Part shown: positions 8,567 through 51,885 of the stretch, piece after piece | How positions within the stretch are numbered: the first letter of the stretch is position 1 | How the letters are laid out: every line of letters starts with the position of its first letter | Origin: Octopus sinensis | Lineage: Eukaryota | Direction: 5' to 3' | NCBI RefSeq assembly: GCF_006345805.1 | Contig: NC_043005.1 | Location: forward strand, 50,468,001 to 50,532,000 | DNA length: 64,000 bases | The notes under the pieces: model-generated | The model's input: the letters and a program-made list of their open reading frames with translations, nothing else | What the model was told of the DNA's origin: nothing | Database searches by the model: none | Program-made: the position numbers and the translations under genes

Positions 8567-8928
8567 CCCACCCTCGCCTGCACTTCCCGCCTCCTCATCC
8601 GTGCCACCTTCCGTTCCACCCGCTCCCTCCTTCACTCTCTTGACCACTAACTTCCCCAGGCTTACCTCCTCCTCTGCCCTCCACTCTTCACCCAACCCAT
8701 TCTCTGCTTAAAAAAGTAAAAATGTGACCGCGTGTGTACCGTTGGCGATTTCTTTCCTCCGTCTTCCCTTCTCTGGATCATTCCTATATTTCTGATGAAG
8801 AGCTCCGCTCGAAACGTTAAATACTCCATCTTCCCTTCTTTCCTGAGCGTCCAATAATACTATATTTGTCACACGTCCTCGCGTTGTTGTGTTTTCTCTT
8901 TGTGTTTTTCATGCTTGGATTAAACTTT
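8563..8928 (+). mobile_element. PLE/retrozyme-like fragment with hammerhead, embedded in (TA)n (family 2, copy 1)
   Basis: Flanked by (TA)n on both sides. 8722-8928 is homologous to the reverse complement of 49805-50012. Contains a hammerhead core. Confidence 0.7.
8787..8823 (+). ncRNA. Minimal type I hammerhead ribozyme, family 2
   Basis: TATTT-CTGATGA-A-GAGC-tcc-GCTC-GAAA-CG-TT-AAATA. Stem I UAUUU/AAAUA, stem II GAGC/GCUC, palindromic ACGU stem III of the kind described for PLE minimal hammerheads. Confidence 0.8.
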
Positions 8929-9114: not shown

Positions 9115-9335
9115 TTTTTAAAGGCTGGTATCACTAGCTATTTCGTTTGACGTATAGAAGAGTAACGTAAATCCATGGTGTGTATATGCACCTGTTCAAT
9201 AGCCAAATGATACTTAATATATCTGTAGTTAAATAAATATTTAGATATCTTTTGTGTTTGTCTTGTGTGTGTATATCTGATCAAACCATTACAGGACTGA
9301 CTATTTTATTTTCTACGTTATTTTAGTATTATAAA

Positions 9336-9382
<47 letters not shown>

Positions 9383-9827
9383 CATACATAAAATTTTCTT
9401 TTTCATTTTACATATACATATATATTTATAAATATATATATATATATAGCACCAGGTGGTGCTATTAAGTTAGACATGGCCTGGGCCAATAATGGCCGAA
9501 ACCTATCAAAGTATCAAAGTATCAACGTATATATTATATATATATATATATAATATATATATATACAAAGAGATAGACAATGAAACAATGAGAGAGACAA
9601 ACTAAGATTGAGAAGTAATAAACATATATAGTTAACATAATGGGATTTTTTTAAAATCGAATACATTAATTGTAATTAATATTATTATAACTCTTCTGGC
9701 TTTTTTGGGAAATATTGGCATACATAGAAAATATTTTATCTTTTTATATATATACATACATTCATATATATATATATATTATAAATATATATGTATATGT
9801 AAAATGAAAAAGAAAATTTTATGTATG

Positions 9828-9868
<41 letters not shown>

Positions 9869-10035
9869 ATATATATATATACATATATATACGTTGATAC
9901 TTTGATACTTTGATAGTTTCGGCCATTATTGGCCCAGGCCATGTCTAACTTAATAGCACCACCTGGTGCTATATATTTAATGTAAAATAAAAATAAATTT
10001 ATGATGCCAATATATATATATATAATATATATATG

Positions 10036-10073
<38 letters not shown>

Positions 10074-10295
10074 TTTATAATACTAACATAGTAGTAGATA
10101 TAAATAGTCAGTCCTGTAATGGTTTGATCAGATACACACACACAAAGACAAACACAAAAGATATCTAAATATTATTTAAACTACAGATATATTAAGTATC
10201 ATTTGGCTATTGAAACAGGTGCATATACACACCATGGATTTAGGTTACTCTTCTATACGTCAAACGAAATATCTAGTGATACCAACCTTTAAAAA
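9115..10295. repeat. Long inverted repeat (~410-bp arms: 9115-9530 and 9890-10295)
   Basis: The arms are reverse complements with scattered indels, e.g. CATGGTGTGTATATGCACCTG / CAGGTGCATATACACACCATG. Confidence 0.9.
9448..9527 (+). mobile_element. Extreme 3' tip of a related CR1-group LINE (also at 1565-1616 minus and 9891-9970 minus)
   Basis: GGTGGTGCTATTAAGTTAGACATGGCCTGGGCCAATAATGGCCGAAAC followed by an (ATCAAAGT)n octamer tail, sitting in (TA)n. Confidence 0.7.
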
Positions 10296-13634: not shown

Positions 13635-14462
13635 CGGTAAGCTGGCAGAAACGTTAGCACGCCGGGCGAAATGCGTGAGCCGTATTTCGTCTGTCGTTAC
13701 GTTCTGAGTTCAAATTCCGCCGAGGTCGACTTTGCCTTTCATCCTTTTGAGGTCGATAAATTAAGTACCAGTTATGCACTGGGGTAAATGCAATCGATTT
13801 AATCCCTTTGTCTGTCCTTGTTTGTTCTCTCTGTGTTTAGCTCCTTGTAGGTAGTAAAGAAATGGGTATTTCGCCAATCGCTACGTTCTGAGTTCAAATT
13901 CCGCTGATGTCGACTTCACCTTTCATCCTTTTGGGGTCGATAAAATGAGTACCAGTGAAATACTGGGGTCGATGTGATCCACCAATTCCGCACGCAAATT
14001 TCAGGTCTTGTGCGTAGAACGCACTGGGGTCGATGTAATCGACTTAATACCTATGTCTGTCTTTGTTGTCCCCTCTACACTACCGTCAAAATTAATTAGC
14101 ACCCTGATTTGCTCTTCACTCAAGGTATGTGCTGTCACTAGTGGCCATATCTCGACTATTGCTTTGTTGCGTTCACTGTTGCGCAGAACGATGACGTAAC
14201 TTTGTTTGCAGAGCAGTTTGAGAGTCTACAGCCTTATGATGTTGACATAGCAGTGCAACAACAACTTGGAGTGCGGATCAGACAAATCTTCCTTGTTTAA
14301 TAGATATAAGTCGCCTCCAAGACCGAATCACACCATACTAAGTTTTCTCATCGCGTAAAACGTTTTGAACAGCTCATAGGTTAATTGATTTACCTATTTA
14401 TGTAGAAATTTAGAAGTGCTAATTAATTTCTGACGCCCCTTGTGGGTAATAAAGAAATAGGT
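13635..14462 (+). mobile_element. SINE family A composite (templated duplication and MITE insertion)
   Basis: Head at 13635. 13751-14021 matches 22130-22400. The body resumes at 14021 and the tail lies at 14436-14460. Confidence 0.8.
14078..14435. mobile_element. Tc1-like MITE/deletion derivative inserted in a SINE
   Basis: TA then CACTACCGTCAAAATTAATTAGCAC ... GTGCTAATTAATTTCTGACG (inverted). The SINE tail CCCCTTGTGGGTAATAAAGAAAT resumes immediately afterwards. Confidence 0.7.
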
Positions 14463-21550: not shown

Positions 21551-22010
21551 GCAGCATAATACTCTAAATTATGATGCTACGAACCAATGAACACACAGAC
21601 CCCATCACCACCACCACCACCACCACCACCATAATTTTTGGTGAAATTGCTGTAAATGAAAGAAAATTAAGAATTGAAAAATTTATGCTAATTACTGACA
21701 CAAAACCATAAATTTGAAAACTGGATCAATCAACACCATAATTTCATTTTCAACGACTGATTTGTAAAGCAGGTATTTTTTTAATCTTTATTTTTCTGAT
21801 TTCAGCGACAGAGTCAGACAAAAGAGAAACAGACCAAATGTTAACGAGCGCGACTGTGCAACTGAAATTGAATCAGGCTCTTGAGAGCAAGACACCAAAA
21901 ATGACCCCAAAATAACAAGATTTTTAATATAGTTTAGCGAAATACCTAATGTGGGAGAGAGTTATAGTCGATTGTTTAAGCGTACGATATGAATGTGGTT
22001 AATATTATCA

Positions 22011-22460
22011 AGGGCGGCGAGCTGGCAGAAACGTTAGCACGCCGGGCGAAATGCGTAGCGGTATTTCGTCTGCCGTTACGTTCTGAGTTCAAATTCTGCC
22101 GAGGTCGACTTTGCCTTTCATCCTTTTGGGGTCGATAAATTAAGTACCAGTTATGCACTGGGGTAAATGCAATCGATTTAATCCCTTTGTCTGTCCTTGT
22201 TTGTTCTCTCTGTGTTTAGCTCCTTGTAGGTAGTAAAGAAATGGGTATTTCGCCAATCGCTACGTTCTGAGTTCAAATTCCGCTGATGTCGACTTCACCT
22301 TTCATCCTTTTGGGGTCGATAAAATGAGTACCAGTGAAATACTGGGGTCGATGTGATCCACCAATTCTGCACGCAAATTTCAGGTCTTGTGCGTAGAACG
22401 AATTATTATTATCGTTATTAAGGCGGCGAACTAGCAGAATCGTTACCATGTCGGACAAAA
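22011..22460 (+). mobile_element. SINE family A tandem/dimeric cluster
   Basis: A full copy at 22011-22242, a second headless copy to ~22400, and a head fragment at 22420-22460. Confidence 0.85.
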
Positions 22461-22933
22461 TTTTGGACTAAAACAAAATGGAGACGAACACCAATTTTTC
22501 TATGTGATCGGCTTGAAGAATTGTCGTGATATTTTCTTTACATGAAACCGACGCTAACCTTAATACATAAATAAAGTATATGTATGTATGTATGTATGTA
22601 TGTATGAATAAGAAATCTTGCATAGCTACTAAAGTAATCTAGAGATATAGGAAAGATATCACTCTAGCTTGATCAGTGCCAATAAACTTGGAATAATTGA
22701 ATAAGTATGTGCTTCAGATGGAATAGAGTGTTCAGAATCTGGCAACCATAAAGAACATAAAACTCGGCTTATATCATAAACACAACATATGCACAGATAC
22801 ATACTTACTTAAATACATACATGTGCATATGTGTGTGTGTGTGTATGTGTTTAGTGTGCATGTGTTTGGTGTGAATGTGTGTGTGTGCGCGCATATATGT
22901 GTGCATTTATATATATATATATATATATAATAT

Positions 22934-22967
<34 letters not shown>

Positions 22968-23008
22968 ATATATATATATATATTATATATATATATATAT
23001 ATACGATA

Positions 23009-23070
23009 CCCGAGGACAGTCTGTTTCTGGATTTGTGGGTAAAACGCCACTTTTCCTTCATCAGCTCAGA
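23009..23070 (-). ncRNA. Minimal type I hammerhead ribozyme (first of 3 minus-strand copies; TCATCAG at 23058, 23619, 24179)
   Basis: Reverse complement of the motif at 24375-24436 (CCCGAG GACAGTCTGTTTC...TCATCAG CTCAGA). Confidence 0.78.
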
Positions 23071-24374
23071 GATTTCTTCTTATTTAGATTTGAAAATACT
23101 AAGAATCAAACATACCCGTCCGATATCTGTAACATCGGACAAACCATGCCAGACACCCAGTACTAGCGAATCCAAAAATACGAATGAGATCTATTATTCT
23201 CCCTGTCCACCCACGTGAGTCATAGAGCATTACATTTCTACAGAGGTAAAAACTGTAGTTCAAATTCTTGGAGAGAAAAGTATTATATTGTCATCAAAAA
23301 AGGGGGTAGAATTAATTAATTGTTAATAAATTCGACCAAGCAGTATTCGGTATGTAAAGACCATTTACGGTGTATTTGAAGTATTAATTTATAAAAATAT
23401 GGTAAAGTAAAAAATTCACTTTACCACACACCGAACTTTTCAGAAATAGCAGCCAAAAATATGGCTATTTCTTCAACTGCAAATAAAAGTCTCCAGACAA
23501 TGCATACTCAGAAAATAACTCACATAGGTATAAGGGAAAAACAATGAAAGATCACATCCATATACGATACCCGAGGACAGTCTGTTTCTGGATTTGTGGG
23601 TAAAACGCCACTTTTCCTTCATCAGCTCAGAGATTTCTTCTTATTTAGATTTGAAAATACTAAGAATCAAACATACCCGTCCGATATCTGTAACATCGGA
23701 CAAACCATGCCAGACACCCAGTACTAGCGAATCCAAAAATACGAATGAGATCTATTATTCTCCCTGTCCACCCACGTGAGTCATAGAGCATTACATTTCT
23801 ACAGAGGTAAAAACTGTAGTTCAAATTCTTGGAGAGAAAAGTATTATATTGTCATCAAAAAAGGGGGTAGAATTAATTAATTGTTAATAAATTCGACCAA
23901 GCAGTATTCGGTATGTAAAGACCATTTACGGTGTATTTGAAGTATTAATTTATAAAAATATGGTAAAGTAAAAAATTCACTTTACCACACACCGAACTTT
24001 TCAGAAATAGCAGCCAAAAATATGGCTATTTCTTCAACTGCAAATAAAAGTCTCCAGACAATGCATACTCAGAAAATAACTCACATAGGTATAAGGGAAA
24101 AACAATGAAAGATCACATCCATATACGATACCCGAGGACAGTCTGTTTCTGGATTGTGGGTAAAACGCCACTTTTCCTTCATCAGCTCAGAGATTTCTTC
24201 TTATTTAGATTTGAAAATACTAAGAATCAAACATACCCGTCCGATATCTGTAACATCGGACAAACCATGCCAGACACCCAGTACTAGCGAGTCTGGCATG
24301 GTTTGTCCGATGTTACAGATATCGGACGGGTATGTTTGATTCTTAGTATTTTCAAATCTAAATAAGAAGAAATC

Positions 24375-24436
24375 TCTGAGCTGATGAAGGAAAAGTGGCG
24401 TTTTACCCACAAATCCAGAAACAGACTGTCCTCGGG
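24375..24436 (+). ncRNA. Minimal type I hammerhead ribozyme (first of 8 plus-strand copies; CUGAUGA at 24381, 24940, 25501, 26063, 26622, 27183, 27742, 28300)
   Basis: TCTGAG-CTGATGA-A-GGA-aaa-GTGG..CCAC-aaa-TCC-A-GAAA-CAG-A-CTG-TC-CTCGGG. Stem I UCUGAG/CUCGGG (2 G-U pairs), stem II GGA/UCC plus GUGG/CCAC, stem III ACAG/CUGU with a 1-nt loop, GUC cleavage triplet ending at 24430. The base of stem II is non-canonical (A opposite A). Confidence 0.78.
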
Positions 24437-27400
24437 TATCGTATATGGATGTGATCTTCATTGTTTTTCCCTTATACCTATGTGAGTTATTTTCTGAGTA
24501 TGCATTGTCTGGAGACTTTTATTTGCAGTTGAAGAAATAGCCATATTTTTGGCTGCTATTCTGAAAAGTTCGGTGTGTGGTAAAGTGAATTTTTTACTTT
24601 ACCATATTTTTATAAATTAATACTTCAAATACACCGTAAATGGTCTTTACATACCGAATACTGCTTGGTCGAATTTATTAACAATTAATTAATTCTACCC
24701 CCTTTTTTGATGACAATATAATACTTTTCTCTCCAAGAATTTGAACTACAGTTTTTACCTCTGTAGAAATGTAATGCTCTATGACTCACGTGGGTGGACA
24801 GGGAGAATAATAGATCTCATTCGTATTTTTGGATTCGCTAGTACTGGGTGTCTGGCATGGTTTGTCCGATGTTACAGATATCGGACGGGTATGTTTGATT
24901 CTTAGTATTTTCAAATCTAAATAAGAAGAAATCTCTGAGCTGATGAAGGAAAAGTGGCGTTTTACCCACAAATCCAGAAACAGACTGTCCTCGGGTATCG
25001 TATATGGATGTGATCTTTCATTGTTTTTCCCTTATACCTATGTGAGTTATTTTCTGAGTATGCATTGTCTGGAGACTTTTATTTGCAGTTGAAGAAATAG
25101 CCATATTTTTGGCTGCTATTTCTGAAAAGTTCGGTGTGTGGTAAAGTGAATTTTTTTACTTTACCATATTTTTATAATTAATACTTCAAATACACCGTAA
25201 ATGGTCTTTACATACCGAATACTGCTTGGTCGAATTTATTAACAATTAATTAATTCTACCCCCTTTTTTGATGACAATATAATACTTTTCTCTCCAAGAA
25301 TTTGAACTACAGTTTTTACCTCTGTAGAAATGTAATGCTCTATGACTCACGTGGGTGGACAGGGAGAATAATAGATCTCATTCGTATTTTTGGATTCGCT
25401 AGTACTGGGTGTCTGGCATGGTTTGTCCGATGTTACAGATATCGGACGGGTATGTTTGATTCTTAGTATTTTCAAATCTAAATAAGAAGAAATCTCTGAG
25501 CTGATGAAGGAAAAGTGGCGTTTTACCCACAAATCCAGAAACAGACTGTCCTCGGGTATCGTATATGGATGTGATCTTTCATTGTTTTTCCCTTATACCT
25601 ATGTGAGTTATTTTCTGAGTATGCATTGTCTGGAGACTTTTATTTGCAGTTGAAGAAATAGCCATATTTTTGGCTGCTATTTCTGAAAAGTTCGGTGTGT
25701 GGTAAAGTGAATTTTTTTACTTTACCATATTTTTATAAATTAATACTTCAAATACACCGTAAATGGTCTTTACATACCGAATACTGCTTGGTCGAATTTA
25801 TTAACAATTAATTAATTCTACCCCCTTTTTTGATGACAATATAATACTTTTCTCTCCAAGAATTTGAACTACAGTTTTTACCTCTGTAGAAATGTAATGC
25901 TCTATGACTCACGTGGGTGGACAGGGAGAATAATAGATCTCATTCGTATTTTTGGATTCGCTAGTACTGGGTGTCTGGCATGGTTTGTCCGATGTTACAG
26001 ATATCGGACGGGTATGTTTGATTCTTAGTATTTTCAAATCTAAATAAGAAGAAATCTCTGAGCTGATGAAGGAAAAGTGCGTTTTACCCACAAATCCAGA
26101 AACAGACTGTCCTCGGGTATCGTATATGGATGTGATCTTTCATTGTTTTTCCCTTATACCTATGTGAGTTATTTTCTGAGTATGCATTGTCTGGAGACTT
26201 TTATTTGCAGTTGAAGAAATAGCCATATTTTTGGCTGCTATTTCTGAAAAGTTCGGTGTGTGGTAAAGTGAATTTTTTACTTTACCATATTTTTATAAAT
26301 TAATACTTCAAATACACCGTAAATGGTCTTTACATACCGAATACTGCTTGGTCGAATTATTAACAATTAATTAATTCTACCCCCTTTTTTGATGACAATA
26401 TAATACTTTTCTCTCCAAGAATTTGAACTACAGTTTTTACCTCTGTAGAAATGTAATGCTCTATGACTCACGTGGGTGGACAGGGAGAATAATAGATCTC
26501 ATTCGTATTTTTGGATTCGCTAGTACTGGGTGTCTGGCATGGTTTGTCCGATGTTACAGATATCGGACGGGTATGTTTGATTCTTAGTATTTTCAAATCT
26601 AAATAAGAAGAAATCTCTGAGCTGATGAAGGAAAAGTGGCGTTTTACCCACAAATCCAGAAACAGACTGTCCTCGGGTATCGTATATGGATGTGATCTTT
26701 CATTGTTTTTCCCTTATACCTATGTGAGTTATTTTCTGAGTATGCATTGTCTGGAGACTTTTATTTGCAGTTGAAGAAATAGCCATATTTTTGGCTGCTA
26801 TTTCTGAAAAGTTCGGTGTGTGGTAAAGTGAATTTTTTTACTTTACCATATTTTTATAAATTAATACTTCAAATACACCGTAAATGGTCTTTACATACCG
26901 AATACTGCTTGGTCGAATTTATTAACAATTAATTAATTCTACCCCCTTTTTTGATGACAATATAATACTTTTCTCTCCAAGAATTGAACTACAGTTTTTA
27001 CCTCTGTAGAAATGTAATGCTCTATGACTCACGTGGGTGGACAGGGAGAATAATAGATCTCATTCGTATTTTTGGATTCGCTAGTACTGGGTGTCTGGCA
27101 TGGTTTGTCCGATGTTACAGATATCGGACGGGTATGTTTGATTCTTAGTATTTTCAAATCTAAATAAGAAGAAATCTCTGAGCTGATGAAGGAAAAGTGG
27201 CGTTTTACCCACAAATCCAGAAACAGACTGTCCTCGGGTATCGTATATGGATGTGATCTTCATTGTTTTTCCCTTATACCTATGGAGTTATTTTCTGAGT
27301 ATGCATTGTCTGGAGACTTTTATTTGCAGTTGAAGAAATAGCCATATTTTTGGCTGCTATTTCTGAAAAGTTCGGTGTGTGGTAAAGTGAATTTTTTACT

Positions 27401-28656
27401 TTACCATATTTTTATAAATTAATACTTCAAATACACCGTAAATGGTCTTTACATACCGAATACTGCTTGGTCGAATTTATTAACAATTAATTAATTCTAC
27501 CCCCTTTTTTGATGACAATATAATACTTTTCTCTCCAAGAATTTGAACTACAGTTTTTACCTCTGTAGAAATGTAATGCTCTATGACTCACGTGGGTGGA
27601 CAGGGAGAATAATAGATCTCATTCGTATTTTTGGATTCGCTAGTACTGGGTGTCTGGCATGGTTTGTCCGATGTTACAGATATCGGACGGGTATGTTTGA
27701 TTCTTAGTATTTTCAAATCTAAATAAGAAGAAATCTCTGAGCTGATGAAGGAAAAGTGGCGTTTTACCCACAAATCCAGAAACAGACTGTCCTCGGGTAT
27801 CGTATATGGATGTGATCTTTCATTGTTTTTCCCTTATACCTATGTGAGTTATTTTCTGAGTATGCATTGTCTGGAGACTTTTATTTGCAGTTGAAGAAAT
27901 AGCCATATTTTTGGCTGCTATTTCTGAAAAGTTCGGTGTGTGGTAAAGTGAATTTTTTACTTTACCATATTTTTATAAATTAATACTTCAAAACACCGTA
28001 AATGGTCTTTACATACCGAATACTGCTTGGTCGAATTTATTAACAATTAATTAATTCTACCCCCTTTTTTGATGACAATATAATACTTTTCTCTCCAAGA
28101 ATTTGAACTACAGTTTTTACCTCTGTAGAAATGTAATGCTCTATGACTCACGTGGGTGGACAGGAGAATAATAGATCTCATTCGTATTTTTGGATTCGCT
28201 AGTACTGGGTGTCTGGCATGGTTTGTCCGATGTTACAGATATCGGACGGGTATGTTTGATTCTTAGTATTTTCAAATCTAAATAGAAGAAATCTCTGAGC
28301 TGATGAAGGAAAAGTGGCGTTTTACCCACAAATCCAGAAACAGACTGTCCTCGGGTATCGTATATGGATGTGATCTTTCATTGTTTTTCCTTATACCTAT
28401 GTGAGTTATTTTCTGAGTATGCATTGTCTGGAGACTTTTATTTGCAGTTGAAGAAATAGCCATATTTTTGGCTGCTATTTCTGAAAAGTTCGGTGTGTGG
28501 TAAAGTGAATTTTTTACTTACCATATTTTTATAAATTAATACTATATATATATATATATATATAAATTCATCTACCAAGACGGACAGAAACCTAGGAATG
28601 CATTCATCTATACGCCTATACAACGTACGTATTTCTATACATACATATGTATCAAC

Positions 28657-31529: not shown

Positions 31530-32150
31530 AATGGGTAGAAACAAATTGTGGAGCGGTGGAGCCAGAAGCCTCTGCATAGATAGTATATACTTCGAAGTTG
31601 AAAAGCTGATGTAGATCGAGCAACAGTGGCTGAGAAGCTCAGGACTGAAAGCAGAAAGTGAGGGTTTCATATTAGCGGCACAAGATCAAAGCCTGCTTAC
31701 CAAAAAATTACCAGACTAACGTTCTTCGGTTTTGACCCTGAATGCAGATTCTGCGACACATATGACGAAACAATAGACCATCTTATCTCGGGATGTCCTG
31801 TGCTGACATCAAATGATACAGTAGGACAGTATTTACATTGGGAAATATGTAAACAATACAACAGCAACAATCTTGCTTACTGGCATGAACATCATACTGA
31901 GCGAGTCGTTGAAGGTAAAACTCTCACCATCCTCTGGGATTTTCAAGTCCACATCAACAGAAAGATCTAGGCTAATCGACCAGACATAGTCATTAAAGAA
32001 CGGGGAGAAAATACTTGTAGACTAATAGATTTAAGTGTTCCCACTGATATCTGCAAAGGAATTTGACAATATTTTATCCTTCACTCGCCCTAGGACGCTA
32101 CCTGTGTCTCGGCAAGTGATCGTAACAACATGCACATTAAAAGTAACTAA
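31530..32150 (+). mobile_element. R4/Dong-like RLE non-LTR retrotransposon fragment (degenerate)
   Basis: Reads QWLRSSGLKAESEGFILAAQDQSL, CRFCDTYDETIDHLISGCP (CCHC knuckle) and ILWDFQV...NRPDIVIK...LIDLSVP (PD..D restriction-like endonuclease). Ends in (TAA)n. Confidence 0.85.
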
Positions 32151-34277: not shown

Positions 34278-35172
34278 AATTCGTGTATTGGCCACAAGGG
34301 GTTACATAAAATTGCATTAAAATATACAACATAAAAGACAAAAACAGGACGATACAATGGGTTTTACAATGTGTAAACAATAGAATAATAATTAAAATTA
34401 AACAATTTAAAACTCCCAATAGGGAAGGCGCATTAAGGACCTCGGGAAAAAAACCCCAAAAAGTCACGGGTGCCTGAACAACAGGGCAAGAGTCCTTCTC
34501 ATTTTGTTTACAGGTAAACACTCAGAATTGGTCACTTCACACTGGTCATTCTTCTAACATTCACCCACTTTTCAACAAACTTGCTAGAAGACAACAATTC
34601 CCTCTCCACCTTCGACTTCCTTTTCAAGTGAAACTTGAAAAAGTTGATGAGGGCTTGGCCAAAGAGGAAAGTGCCTGTCTTTATCAGTTTCAAAAGGGTC
34701 CACCATACTACCTCTTTCGCTACAGCCACTAGACAAATAGAAATTGCCTTCCCCTCCCGGCCAAAAAAGGGCGGCGGTGGAATCCTCACAATGGATTCAG
34801 CTGATAGCCGGATTCGTCCTACACACGACAGCAGGTATTCGACATAAACCCACAGACCAGCAATACTCGGGCACTGGACATGGGCGTGCAGAACGGTTTC
34901 GTCGTTCTGGGTGCACCTCGGGCAGGCCCGGCTGACGGCACTTCCGTGCCTGTAAAGTTTATCTCGAAAAGGCAGCGCCCCTCGGTAACACTACCAGGCA
35001 AGGGATTTCTGGAAGTTGTCCATAGGCCCATGCCCGAAAGTTCTCTGTAACAGACCGGTTAGTTGATCTTCATCGACGCCCACAGTTTTCCCGAGAACAT
35101 CGTCGCACTTTCCCTCCACGAGCCCTCCATAGAACGCCACAGTAAAACTACCACCGACCGCATTGCCCGCCT
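34278..35172 (-). mobile_element. Tx1/L1-like LINE 3' fragment
   Basis: Minus strand RDKLYRHGSAVSRACPRCTQNDETVLHAHVQC (CCHC knuckle), then ...AVAKEVVWW...FKFHLKRKSKVERELLSSSKFVEKW. The 3' UTR ends CCCCTTGTGGCCAATACACGAA plus (ATT)n. Confidence 0.78.
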
Positions 35173-47339: not shown

Positions 47340-49205
47340 ATAAAACTTAGATAAAACTTAGATCTGTTTCGACCAAAGATTGGTCCAGGCCACGTCTAAC
47401 TTAATAGGATTATATAACCTCATAGGATTATATAAATCCTGTTATAGTCAATTTTTTTTTATGGTCCATTCAAGTAGTGAGATTTTGTTGAGTGAGTTGT
47501 ATCCAATTATGGGTGGCTTATCTGGTATTCCTTGTAGGAATCTATCCACACTCCGTTTAAAGTTGATGGGATCCTTTTCCTCTTTGATCTCTTTCGGAAC
47601 AATGTTAAATAGAGCAGGGCCTGTTGAGGAAAAGAAATTATGTTGCAGTGTACATGTATGCTGTGATCTTGAATTGGGCAGGGGACGTATGGCCCATGGT
47701 CCCAGTCTTGGATGAACCTTGAAGCTAATGTTCAGGTCGTTTAGGCAAAGTTGGCGGTATATTCTCCACATCGTACAAATGATTTACCGCTCACGGCGAT
47801 GCTGTAGAGAGTAGAGTTTCAAGGCTTTAAGGTGGTCCCAATAATCGAGAGCAGTCATGCCTTCAATTAGTTTAGTGAGTGCCCTCTGGGGTGATTCAAT
47901 CCTCGAGATGTTTTGTCTTGTATGGGGAGACCACAGTGGGCAGCAGTATTCGAGGTGTGGCCGTACAAAGGAGGAGAAAAGTGGTATGATGACACCTTGT
48001 TCTCTGGACCGGAAAGTTCTTAAGATCCAGGAACTCATCCTACGAGCTATATCGACCTTCTTGTTGATGTGTGTACCCCAACTGAGATCGTCATCAACAA
48101 TTACACCCAGGTCTCTGATATTGTTAGAGGCTGTGAGCGGTTCCCCTGAAGGAAGAGAATATGGTTGTTTTAGTGAGGAATTTCTTCCAAAATGCATCAG
48201 CTCAAATTTTCCCTCGTTCAGTTGCATTTTGTTTGTCTGCCCATTGACTCACAGCATATAGATCAGACTGGAGTTGAGTTCGGTCTGCTTCTTCATTGAT
48301 GATTTGCTGGAGCTTAGTGTCATCAGCAAATATTTTCACTTTGCAGTAATGTACGACACTGGAAAGGTCGTTTATGTAAATTATAAAGAGTAGCGGGCCC
48401 AGGACAGTCCCCTGGGGGACACCGCTGGTGACTTTTGCTGGGCTTGAGTGGGCTCTATCAACTACAACATGTTGCGTTCTATTCGCCAGGAAATACTTAA
48501 TCCAGTGTAGAAGTTTTCCACGGATTCCAACATTTGCCAATTTTGAGAGTAGGATATTATGGTCAACCTGTCGAACGCTTTACTGAAGTCAAGATACATG
48601 ACATCAGAGTTCGAACCTGTTGCCAAGGCTTTGAGTATATCTTCAATGTGGTGTAAGAGCTGTGTTAGACAGTCCCTACCACAGCGAAAGCCATGCTGAT
48701 TTGTATTTAGGAGTTTGTGGGTCTCCAGCGAGTCAGCTATCCTTGATCTTAACACTCTTTCAAACACTTTAATGATGTGGGAGGTGAGTGAGATTGGGCG
48801 ATAGTTGGCTGCGAGGGATCTGCTTCCCTGTTTGAAAACCGGGATGACAGACTGGGATAGAAGCTGTTTTGGTATATAACCTGAGTCTAACGAATTTCTC
48901 CAGAGGTTGGTCAGAGGGACTGCAAGTTGGTGTTTACATTCCTTCAGGAGACTAGCGGGGAATCTATCAGGGCCTACAGCAGAATAGTATTTGACCTCAT
49001 TTATTGGTGTTATGAATGTCAGAAGGTTATGTCTGAGATTTTATGTTGGGAATCAACTTCGTTCGCTTCTCTTACGTCAATATCAGTGGGAACACTAAAG
49101 ACAGAGCAGTATTGTTTCTGCAGTATTTCTGCCATTTCTTAAGCATCGTGTTGGGGAATGCCGTTATTATCAATCAATGGCCCAATGGGTAAGACAGTGG
49201 TTCTA
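47340..49205 (-). mobile_element. 5'-truncated CR1-group LINE (frameshifted RT) with intact 3' end
   Basis: Minus-strand pieces: NYRPISLTS, NQHGFR, YLDFSKAFD, SGVPQGTVLGPLLFIIYINDL, FADDTK, VRPHLEYCCPLWSP, LYSLQHRRER. The 3' end has a stem-loop (GACCA..TGGTC) and a duplicated ATCTAAGTTTT tail running into (TA)n. Confidence 0.93.
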
Positions 49206-49804: not shown

Positions 49805-50012
49805 AAAGAATCCAAAACATGAAAACACAAGAGAAAACACAACAACGCGAGGACGTGGAACAACAAATATATTATTGGACGCCCAGGAAGGAAAGGAAGA
49901 AGGAGGGTTTTACGTTTCGAGCGGAGCTCTTCGTCAGAAACATAGGAAAAGGAAAGATCCAGAGAAGGGAAGACGGGGGGGAAAAAATCACCAACGGTAC
50001 ACATGCGGTCAC
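49805..50012 (-). mobile_element. PLE/retrozyme-like fragment with hammerhead (family 2, copy 2)
   Basis: Reverse-complement homologue of 8722-8928. Its 3' end runs into (TA)n. Confidence 0.7.
49907..49941 (-). ncRNA. Minimal type I hammerhead ribozyme, family 2
   Basis: Minus strand reads GTTT-CTGACGA-A-GAGC-tcc-GCTC-GAAA-CG-TA-AAAC. Stem I GUUU/AAAC, GUA triplet. Confidence 0.8.
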
Positions 50013-50443
50013 ATTATATGTATATATGTATACACACACATATACAAATATATATAAATTTAAATATGGAGAATTTGTAGCATTTTCTCTAGCTCTTGAT
50101 AATGTCATCGTTACTAAATATCAAGGTGTTTTGCAAGATATTAAGGTAAATAAAACGTCATTTTAGATTATCAACATGATTCAAATTTCTATTCTCGTTT
50201 TTCTTTTTTTTTTCATTCTCAAACTGGTTGGTGGTATCTGCAATGAAACATTCTATGTCATCTCATTTTTGATGCAATCTCTTCAAGTCCGATGTCATGT
50301 CATCTCAAGTTTTCTTTGGTCTACCTTGGCCTATTCTTGCACCATTCATATGTAGGGTGACCACATTTTTTAATACACAACCAGAACAGAAAACGATCTC
50401 AGTTTACACACTCAAAAACATGCAAATTTGCATAGAAAAATGC

Positions 50444-50676: not shown

Positions 50677-51885
50677 TATAATTAGTGAATGGAAGAAATG
50701 GAGTTGAACGAAGATTGTACAGAATTCCTTTTATTACATTCTACCATGTTTCAAGGCCACAATTTTCCAAATACCATATTGCAGCTTTCTCTTCAGGAAA
50801 AACCAGGAATTACGTTGTCAGAACAAAACAAAACAGAGGCGCAGCAAAGCAATTCGAACGAGGACGCTCCTTAAGACCCATGGATAAACTGTTTATCAAT
50901 GTACGTTGAAATCGGGGGGTTGGTGGGGGCCGACAAAAGGTCCGTTGGATACTTACAGGTCAGGCCGCGGTCAAATCTAGTAGGTGAGGAATTAATGAGA
51001 ACAAGAGGTGTGGAGATGTTCTGTGTGACCAAAACTAATGTTCTGAATATTTAAAGAATACAGGGTGTATTTTTTAGGGGCGAGACAAAACCTACCTAAA
51101 AGCATGTATGTGTATACTAGCTATGGTGCGCCCCCGTATGTTGGCGAGGGGCGCTAGATAATGAGCACTGCTGAAAAAAGCCTGTCAGGCGGCTGAAGAA
51201 ATTCTGTGTTCGTGTGTTCGTCTGTGGCCTGCTTGTCTAAAAATTAACATCGTCAAAGAATCATAAGGGTATATAATTCCAGCGTTTGCTTCTAAAAAAA
51301 AAAAAAAACCGACCAATCGCCTAAGGGGAGTAATTTCCCCTTGCAAGAGTTATTCAGAGATTTTTTTAAAAAGTTTTTTCAAAAATTATTTCCAAAAATT
51401 ATTTTCATTTTAATAGGGTAACAAGGTGTTAATTGTCTTAGGTATCATTTATATGTAAGATAAGTACTTATACACCCTGTATTCTTTAAATATTCAGAAC
51501 ATTAGTTTTGGTCACACAGAACATCTCCACACCCCTTGTTCTCATTAATTCCTCAGCTACTAGATTTGACCGCGGCCTGACTTGTAAGTATTCCAACGGA
51601 TCTTTTGTCGGCCCCCACCAACGTACATTGATTTCAACGTACATTGATAAACAGTTTATCCATGGGCTCTTAAGGAGCGTCCTCGTTCGAATTGCTTTGC
51701 TGCGCCTCTGTTTTGTTTTGTTCTGACAACGTAATTTCTGGTTTTTCCTGAAGAGAAAGCTGCAATATGGTATCCTTATTTAATCAGAATTTGGAAAATT
51801 GTGGACTTTGAAACATGTGTAGAATGTAATAAAAGGAATTCTGTACAATCTTCGTTCAACTCCATTTCTTCCATTCACTAATTAT
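50677..51885. repeat. Long inverted repeat (~400-bp arms: 50677-51069 and 51471-51885)
   Basis: ATTAGTGAATGGAAGAAATGGAGTTGAACG...AATACAGGGTGTA vs TACACCCTGTATT...CGTTCAACTCCATTTCTTCCATTCACTAAT. Confidence 0.9.

What the first reader, a model, noticed from the sequence alone, without database searches (positions are those of the whole stretch)
24241..24330. Array is a giant fold-back with a 15-nt loop, both arms pointing outward into (TA)n
Seen: ...CCATGCCAGAC-acccagtactagcga-GTCTGGCATGG. The arms begin 15 nt apart in the same phase of the unit, giving a ~1.27-kb near-perfect palindrome. In ribozyme sense both arms end at TA-like microhomology with the flanking (TA)n (..CGTATAT| at the left, ..TAATAC|TATA at the right). 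Known: PLE insertions often carry inverted terminal segments. Inference: cDNA primed at a nick in (TA)n snapped back on itself. A simple snap-back predicts that the loop-bearing left arm is at least as long as the right, but it is shorter (2.3 vs 7.6 units). So either a multimeric/circular template was re-used or the assembly has miscounted units.
Basis: partly seen in the sequence, partly recalled or inferred. Interest (0 to 1): 0.75.

Follow-up and report, generated by a model that had tools for sequence, protein, structure and literature searches.

The report
Fold-back hammerhead retrozyme array in (TA)n
A very young insertion of a self-cutting-RNA repeat sits head-to-head as a 1.3-kb DNA palindrome inside an AT microsatellite, a layout already known from Penelope-like retrotransposons, though its unequal arms may show which new DNA strand folded back.

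Summary
The structure is in the sequence. A 561-nt unit carrying a type I hammerhead motif forms 2.28 copies on the minus strand and 7.6 on the plus strand. They meet 5'-to-5' across a native 15-nt loop, with (TA)n outside both ends. The arms show no substitutions, only 17 one-base indels.

Corrections: only the left end has real TA microhomology (5 nt); the right has 1 nt. The junction has none, but it centres on a native 6-bp palindrome.

Head-to-head inversion with a shorter inverted copy, a junction palindrome and (TA)n targeting is published Penelope-like element (PLE) anatomy, and tandem hammerhead units are non-LTR retrozymes. The arm-length paradox is soft. Best model: the left cDNA snapped back, and its new sense strand annealed to a second, longer cDNA primed from the other nick. 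Later unit loss or a miscount explains it nearly as well.

The flanks are not mirror images, which argues against a fold-back read. The junction was not seen in four public runs, whose contigs cannot show absence.

Side result: one presumed RNA run shows clustered A>G and T>C changes in this family, like hyper-editing of long double-stranded RNA.

The parts
22908..23003 (.). Left (TA)n target tract, interrupted; its last 5 nt are shared with the element
22999..24275 (-). Left arm, 2.28 units in ribozyme sense on the minus strand (23716-24275, 23155-23715, 22999-23154); outer end at unit phase 156, 16 nt past the predicted cleavage site
22999..23003 (-). 5-nt TA microhomology (phases 152-156), one of only two such runs in the unit
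24276..24290 (-). 15-nt loop, native phases 547-561, continuous with the left arm; blunt junction between 24290 and 24291
24280..24285 (.). Native 6-bp palindrome centred on the fold-back axis
24291..28543 (+). Right arm, 7.6 units (starts 24291, 24850, 25411, 25973, 26532, 27093, 27652, 28211); outer end at phase 336 with 1 nt shared with (TA)n
24375..24436 (+). Type I hammerhead motif of the first right-arm unit (core at 24381, predicted cut after 24430): 6-bp stem I, 3-bp G-C-closed stem II, palindromic 4-bp stem III with a 1-nt loop. Same motif in 8 right-arm and 3 left-arm copies (cores at 24185, 23625, 23064 on minus)
   Evidence: activity not tested; no Rfam hammerhead hit
28543..28564 (.). 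Right (TA)11 tract, followed by unique flank that is not a mirror of the left flank

Best explanation
A real, very recent insertion of a non-autonomous hammerhead retroelement (non-LTR retrozyme), mobilised by a PLE protein into a (TA)n tract. Shown in the sequence: unit, hammerhead motif, head-to-head layout, loop on the short arm, 5-nt microhomology on the left only, identical arms. Inferred steps: (1) both strands of (TA)n are nicked. (2) The left 3' end pairs with the unit's TA run at phases 152-156 and primes about 2.3 units of cDNA on a circular or multimeric RNA. (3) The right 3' end primes a longer cDNA from phase 336 without homology. (4) The two cDNAs have the same polarity and cannot pair, so the left one folds back at the 6-bp palindrome and starts copying itself. 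(5) This new sense strand anneals to the right cDNA in any unit register; fill-in and ligation finish the insertion. The long arm's length is then set by the right cDNA, not by the left arm, so no miscount is needed.
For: Loop orientation, 15-nt offset (5.5% by chance) and palindrome at the axis (3.6%) point to snap-back by the left strand. The left end uses one of only two TA runs of 5 nt; the other run (phases 428-432) is where 3 contigs of run X1 run into (TA)n. A purified PLE protein nicks and extends both strands, is predicted to be a dimer, and starts reverse transcription at RNA sites not homologous to the target (PMC11167929). In L1 the second primer anneals by microhomology (PMC11702581). 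Head-to-head junctions with palindromes and a shorter inverted copy are common in PLEs (PMC3846280; PMC8557442). Both arms carry the same allele at phase 74, which is the minority in X1 (depth 6.5k against 19.5k) and nearly absent in X3 (8.7 against 33k), as expected from one template. Flanks do not mirror each other.
Against: One locus. No spanning read or contig confirms the junction: no strand-change joint was listed in any of the 4 runs laid, and no run held more than 12 of 16 sampled words of the junction-bearing query. Self-pairing of the loop is weak: 4 pairs, matched or beaten by 110 of 561 windows, and the 3' base would be mismatched. No autonomous PLE partner was found (no genome held). 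Nothing shows that phase 336 is a reverse-transcription start. Steps 3 and 5 are inference only, and one later change in unit number would fit equally well.
Confidence: 0.4

Rival explanations
1. Simple snap-back of the left cDNA only, with unit numbers changed afterwards. The left arm lost whole units by one direct-repeat deletion, the right arm gained units by slippage or unequal exchange, the polymerase re-aligned repeatedly on its own cDNA, or the assembly miscounted.
For: Needs only one primer. Loop orientation and left microhomology fit. TA-run ends recur in the family. Whole-unit gain or loss keeps both end phases (established behaviour of tandem arrays).
Against: Needs a net change of at least 6 units with 0 substitutions in 5546 sites (95% bound 5.4e-4 per site). 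Each unit has its own error pattern, so units were not simply pasted.
Confidence: 0.22
2. Assembly or library artefact: a fold-back read joins two oppositely oriented arrays from different loci.
For: Fold-back reads occur in about 0.6% of nanopore genomic reads (PMC12870357). The array carries uncorrected one-base indels; the five in the last two units are restored in other runs. The junction was not listed in 4 runs. No host gene spans the site to tie the flanks together (148 of 351 candidate frames scanned, only retrotransposon hits).
Against: A fold-back read mirrors the flank, and 5 kb of left and right flank share no alignment. The loop is native sequence, not adapter. A second locus would need to match at all 561 positions, including a minority allele. 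The layout matches known PLE biology. Contigs cannot show absence, and only 0-1% of X1 and X3 contigs ran on into unlike sequence, so locus-specific junctions were mostly invisible.
Confidence: 0.15
3. The long right cDNA folded back first, copied 2.28 units of itself and annealed to the left (TA)n by microhomology; the 15-nt loop was flipped later by recombination or template switching between the perfect arms.
For: Gives the usual PLE pattern of long body plus short inverted copy. Non-homologous start on the right and a microhomology join on the left fit. Spacer inversion between perfect inverted repeats is documented in yeast (PMC8604942).
Against: Needs an extra event at a locus with no substitutions. 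The yeast inversions were of 2-5 bp spacers.
Confidence: 0.13
4. No snap-back: two cDNAs ran to nearly the same 5' end of a linear multimeric RNA and were joined end to end, or the junction was copied from a donor that was already palindromic.
For: Explains the blunt junction, the unequal arms and the near-equal phases in one step. A-box-like and B-box-like words (recalled consensus) lie at phases 4 and 44.
Against: The box pair appears in 61 of 1000 shuffles, no tRNA gene was called, and T runs follow at once. The ribozyme cut is at phase 140, not near 547-561. A recurrent or inherited junction should be multi-copy, and none was listed. L1-type twin priming puts the breakpoints 1-10 bp apart; here they are 155 nt apart.
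Confidence: 0.1

Closest known systems
Metazoan non-LTR retrozymes (Cervera and de la Pena 2020, PMC7229834; Li, Clavereau and Pollet 2026, 10.64898/2026.07.22.740005)
   Same: Tandem non-coding unit, GC 34.8%, type I hammerhead motif in every unit, high-copy family.
   Different: Unit of 561 nt is above the usual 150-450 bp, though within the 51-972 bp range in Li 2026. The array is head-to-head with both arms multimeric; 'inverted' occurs 0 times in the 2020 text and once in the 2026 text. Circular RNA and cleavage not shown here.
Head-to-head inverted pLTR insertions of Penelope-like elements (Arkhipova 2013, PMC3846280; Craig 2021, PMC8557442)
   Same: Shorter inverted copy at the 5' end, palindrome at the junction, (TA)n target, self-priming proposed. 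The hammerhead has the PLE marks listed in PMC4209133: an extra base between positions 9 and 10.1, a G10.1-C11.1 pair, a palindromic helix III.
   Different: No RT or GIY-YIG ORF, and no autonomous partner identified. Junction is a 15-nt loop round a 6-bp palindrome, not an 18-38 bp pLTR palindrome. One extra A lies before the GAAA box. Arms are kilobase multimers.
L1 5' inversion by twin priming (PMC11702581)
   Same: Both ends primed from the target, both arms pointing outward, microhomology at the second priming site.
   Different: L1 breakpoints are adjacent on the RNA and give no palindrome. Here the arms overlap fully, and the short arm's outer end is 155 nt from the long arm's inner end.

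Membership tests
Non-LTR retrozyme | Tandem repeat of a few hundred bp with at least two consecutive units | tested here: met
   561-nt unit, 2.28 + 7.6 copies
Non-LTR retrozyme | Type I hammerhead motif in each unit | tested here: met
   Own descriptor, written after seeing the motif: 11 of 11 copies, 0 of 2000 shuffles. Rfam gave no hammerhead hit; one non-canonical extra A before GAAA
Non-LTR retrozyme | Non-coding, low GC | tested here: met
   GC 34.8%; longest stop-free frame 81 aa; the one frame searched had no protein relative
Non-LTR retrozyme | Dispersed multi-copy family | tested here: met
   20 of 24 listed runs hold half the words or more, 7 organism labels; 466 and 372 variant contigs in X1 and X3. 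Depth is no copy number
Non-LTR retrozyme | Expressed as linear and circular RNA | tested here: inconclusive
   Run X2 (RNA is a guess) has a contig across the unit-unit border and edited-looking contigs; contigs cannot tell circle from tandem
Non-LTR retrozyme | Self-cleavage, as monomer or dimer | not testable with these tools
   Stem III self-duplex -7.1 kcal/mol, but free co-folding of two copies did not give the canonical dimer
Non-LTR retrozyme | Target-site duplication | tested here: inconclusive
   Both ends lie in (TA)n, which hides any duplication
PLE-mobilised insertion | Shorter inverted copy head-to-head at the 5' end | tested here: met
PLE-mobilised insertion | Palindrome at the inverted junction | tested here: inconclusive
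   6-bp palindrome on the axis, 3.6% by chance, post hoc; loop pairing unremarkable
PLE-mobilised insertion | Microsatellite or AT-rich target | tested here: met
   (TA)n at both ends; further (TA)n ends in X1
PLE-mobilised insertion | Homology to the pLTR of an autonomous PLE | tested here: inconclusive
   No genome; no partner in the window; peptide search blank and weak
Autonomous PLE | RT plus GIY-YIG ORF | tested here: not met
L1-type twin-priming inversion | Internal breakpoints within about 10 bp on the RNA | tested here: not met
   155 nt apart against 1-10 bp
Long-read fold-back artefact | Mirror image continues into the flank, or adapter lies at the turn | tested here: not met
   No flank alignment; loop is native
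Long-read fold-back artefact | Junction absent from independent reads of the same individual | not testable with these tools
   Only contigs of coded runs were available

The most novel reading that the evidence does not exclude
Multimeric retrozyme insertions uncouple the two arm lengths and so record the order of events in PLE integration: two-ended priming, snap-back of the microhomology-primed cDNA, and annealing to the other cDNA. This would explain the unexplained head-to-head pLTR junctions without an antisense RNA template. The resulting kilobase palindromes would also be a source of the long double-stranded RNA that is hyper-edited in this family, including at the ribozyme's GAAA core.
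Probability: 0.25. Interest if true: 0.72.

Novelty: new variant of a known kind. Interest (0 to 1): 0.42.

Why it matters
How PLEs make their tandem and inverted ends is stated to be unresolved (PMC8557442; PMC3846280). Loop orientation, end phase and arm length in a high-copy, young, multimeric family give countable predictions that separate the models, so the question becomes testable in one long-read genome. If real, such insertions also create near-perfect kilobase palindromes, which are fragile in DNA (established knowledge) and strong editing substrates in RNA. The single locus, unconfirmed by reads, does not settle any of this.

Tried and rejected
No whole genome is held, so the family survey and the empty-site check could not be run. 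Rfam: nothing at gathering level in the window; at E-value level only hairpin-driven miRNA and other chance hits, rejected. Sequencing runs: no RNA holder listed on record. The fold-back was not listed in X1 (about 76% read), X3 (whole), X5 (about 70%) or X2; contigs show presence, not absence, and the tool skipped 28533-28655 as repeat, so I could not tell whether any run carries this insertion. The X1 joint 28443 to 28402 looked like a second fold-back but reads as a direct back-jump through short repeats (by eye). Metagenome scan for a 23-nt core pattern: 0 matches. The 55-aa frame over the ribozyme found no longer protein (weak). Pfam on 148 of 351 candidate frames: 4 frames hit, RVT_1 or zf-RVT only. 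The LINE RT search gave no organism names. Pol III promoter idea: 61 of 1000 shuffles, no tRNA call, rejected as support. The sigma-70 scan is irrelevant here. Earlier findings of the scan: none returned. PMC9977147 passages added nothing.

Full report
OBSERVATION. The fold-back is in the assembled sequence as described. The loop is 24276-24290, 15 nt. The left arm 22999-24275 matches the start of the right arm at 99.6%, with no mismatches and 5 one-base gaps. The unit is 561 nt. The left arm holds 2.28 units and the right arm, 24291-28543, holds 7.6. All 11 whole or partial units agree at every base except 17 one-base indels. The five indels in the last two units are restored in contigs of other runs, so they are probably consensus errors. 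Zero substitutions in 5546 sites bound divergence below 5.4e-4 per site: the insertion is very young. The flanks beyond the (TA)n tracts share no alignment over 5 kb each.

CORRECTIONS. Microhomology with (TA)n is 5 nt at the left end and 1 nt at the right. Only 2 of 561 positions in the unit offer 5 nt, while 65% offer 1 nt or more. The second such run, phases 428-432, is where 3 contigs of run X1 run into (TA)n, so this kind of end recurs in the family. The inversion junction is blunt. Its axis lies within half a base of one of ten palindromes of 6 bp or more in the unit, which 3.6% of axes would do; this was noticed after the fact, and the loop's total self-pairing is ordinary, 110 of 561 windows doing as well.

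THE UNIT. It has no long frame (81 aa at most), GC of 34.8%, and folds far better than shuffles (z = -6.9). Each copy carries a type I hammerhead motif with a 6-bp stem I, a G-C-closed stem II and a palindromic stem III with a 1-nt loop, of the kind that needs a dimer. My descriptor, written after seeing the motif, finds it in 11 of 11 copies and 0 of 2000 shuffles. Rfam does not recognise it, there is an extra A before the GAAA box, and free co-folding did not give the canonical dimer. Cleavage is untested. The family is held by 20 of 24 listed runs at half the sampled words or more, under 7 organism labels, and is diverse in X1 and X3. The host looks like an octopus, from a recalled resemblance of the SINE at 22010-22200 and the microsatellite load; no call confirmed this (one search gave no names).

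IS THE JUNCTION REAL? It is not independently confirmed. No run held more than 12 of 16 words of a junction-bearing query. No strand-change joint was listed in 4 runs laid on one unit plus the right flank. The test was weak: contigs drop rare variants, the flank was skipped as repeat, and only 0-1% of X1 and X3 contigs ran on into unlike sequence. Fold-back reads are about 0.6% of nanopore genomic reads (PMC12870357, passages). Against an artefact: the flanks are not mirrored, the loop is native, and both arms carry the phase-74 allele that is a minority in X1 and nearly absent in X3. I put the artefact at 0.15.

MECHANISM. Both arms point outward, as if each was primed from the target and copied inward. 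The loop belongs to the left arm, so a plain snap-back implies the left strand folded. My best reading (0.40, inferred) adds a second cDNA primed at the other nick: the folded left cDNA makes a sense strand that anneals to it, so the right arm's length is independent. It rests on a purified PLE protein that nicks and extends both strands and starts without target homology (PMC11167929, parts 1-2 of 4), and on microhomology at the second priming site in L1 (PMC11702581, passages). Rivals: left snap-back with a later change in unit number, repeated re-alignment or miscount (0.22); right snap-back with a later loop flip (0.13; spacer inversion in PMC8604942, passages); end-to-end joining at a shared RNA 5' end or an inherited junction (0.10). 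Snap-back by the left strand, with either ending, totals about 0.6. One locus cannot separate these.

COMPARISON. As a repeat it meets the sequence criteria of non-LTR retrozymes (PMC7229834, passages; 10.64898/2026.07.22.740005, parts 1-3 of 5); circular RNA and cleavage are untested. As an insertion it works like a PLE: an inverted 5'-truncated copy often adjoins the 5' end and (TA)n is a preferred target (PMC8557442, passages); head-to-head junctions with palindromes are the commonest, with self-priming proposed (PMC3846280, passages and section 6). The ribozyme has the PLE marks, and opposite-strand ribozyme pairs 100-700 bp apart were already noted (PMC4209133, parts 1-2 of 4). Descent from a named PLE is not shown. 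Searches listed no title or abstract describing a head-to-head array with two multimeric retrozyme arms or the annealing model. The library lacks most subscription papers; I did not read the older PLE reviews cited there, Repbase entries or any supplements, which may hold such cases.

SIDE RESULT. In run X2 (RNA is a guess; another individual; contigs only), 3 of the 5 loose ends shown differ from the unit by one kind of change only, by eye: 9 of 30 letters A>G, covering the GAAA core; 2 of 8 A>G; 4 of 18 T>C. A fourth resembles an A>G-altered variant subfamily and the fifth did not align. Site 28059 is A>G in 5 X2 contigs and in none of X1 or X3. None of the 12 X1 and X3 loose ends shown has such a cluster; 62 more were not shown. 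This looks like hyper-editing of both strands, which needs long double-stranded RNA, as inverted copies would give. Octopus and lizard Penelope repeats are known to be heavily hyper-edited (PMC5625713, passages). It does not show that this locus is the source.

VERDICT. Observation confirmed, interpretation partly supported. A new variant of a known kind: a retrozyme array with the standard PLE head-to-head inversion, here with multimeric arms. Interest 0.42, mostly because a family-wide survey could test PLE integration models.

Noticed in passing
run X2 laid on window 27990-28655: Clustered A>G and T>C differences in contigs of a presumed RNA run, including the hammerhead GAAA core; looks like hyper-editing of both strands of this family. 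Needs matched DNA.
   Followed up: partly
window 8721-8925 (+) and 49809-50015 (-): Two 85%-identical copies of a second, unrelated element of about 200 nt with a minimal PLE-type hammerhead motif (cores at 8792 and 49937). They share a 5' boundary and both 3' ends run into (TA)n.
   Followed up: partly
window 50678-51070 and 51470-51885: Older inverted pair, 92% identical over 416 nt with a 400-nt spacer; the right arm ends in (TA)n. A weak hammerhead-like match lies at 51748. Identity unknown.
   Followed up: partly
window 9115-9565 and 9852-10295: Inverted duplication of about 450 nt (89%, most differences in TA runs) just after the (TA)n that follows the minimal-hammerhead element.
   Followed up: no
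window 22010-22200, copies at 13640, 45460, 44682, 3676, 42541 and others: Abundant SINE-like family, 70-97% alike; recalled as resembling octopus tRNA-derived SINEs, not tested.
   Followed up: no
window 47787-49040 (-), 34535-34990 (-), 31662-31967 (+): Broken LINE reverse-transcriptase pieces (RVT_1, zf-RVT).
   Followed up: partly
unit phase 193 (window 24482 and equivalents): One consensus-like 5' splice word in ribozyme sense; my strict acceptor pattern found no match. PLE pLTRs can hold introns.
   Followed up: no
run X1, window 28341-28458: One contig at depth 45 skips 116 nt starting inside the hammerhead: an internally deleted family member.
   Followed up: no
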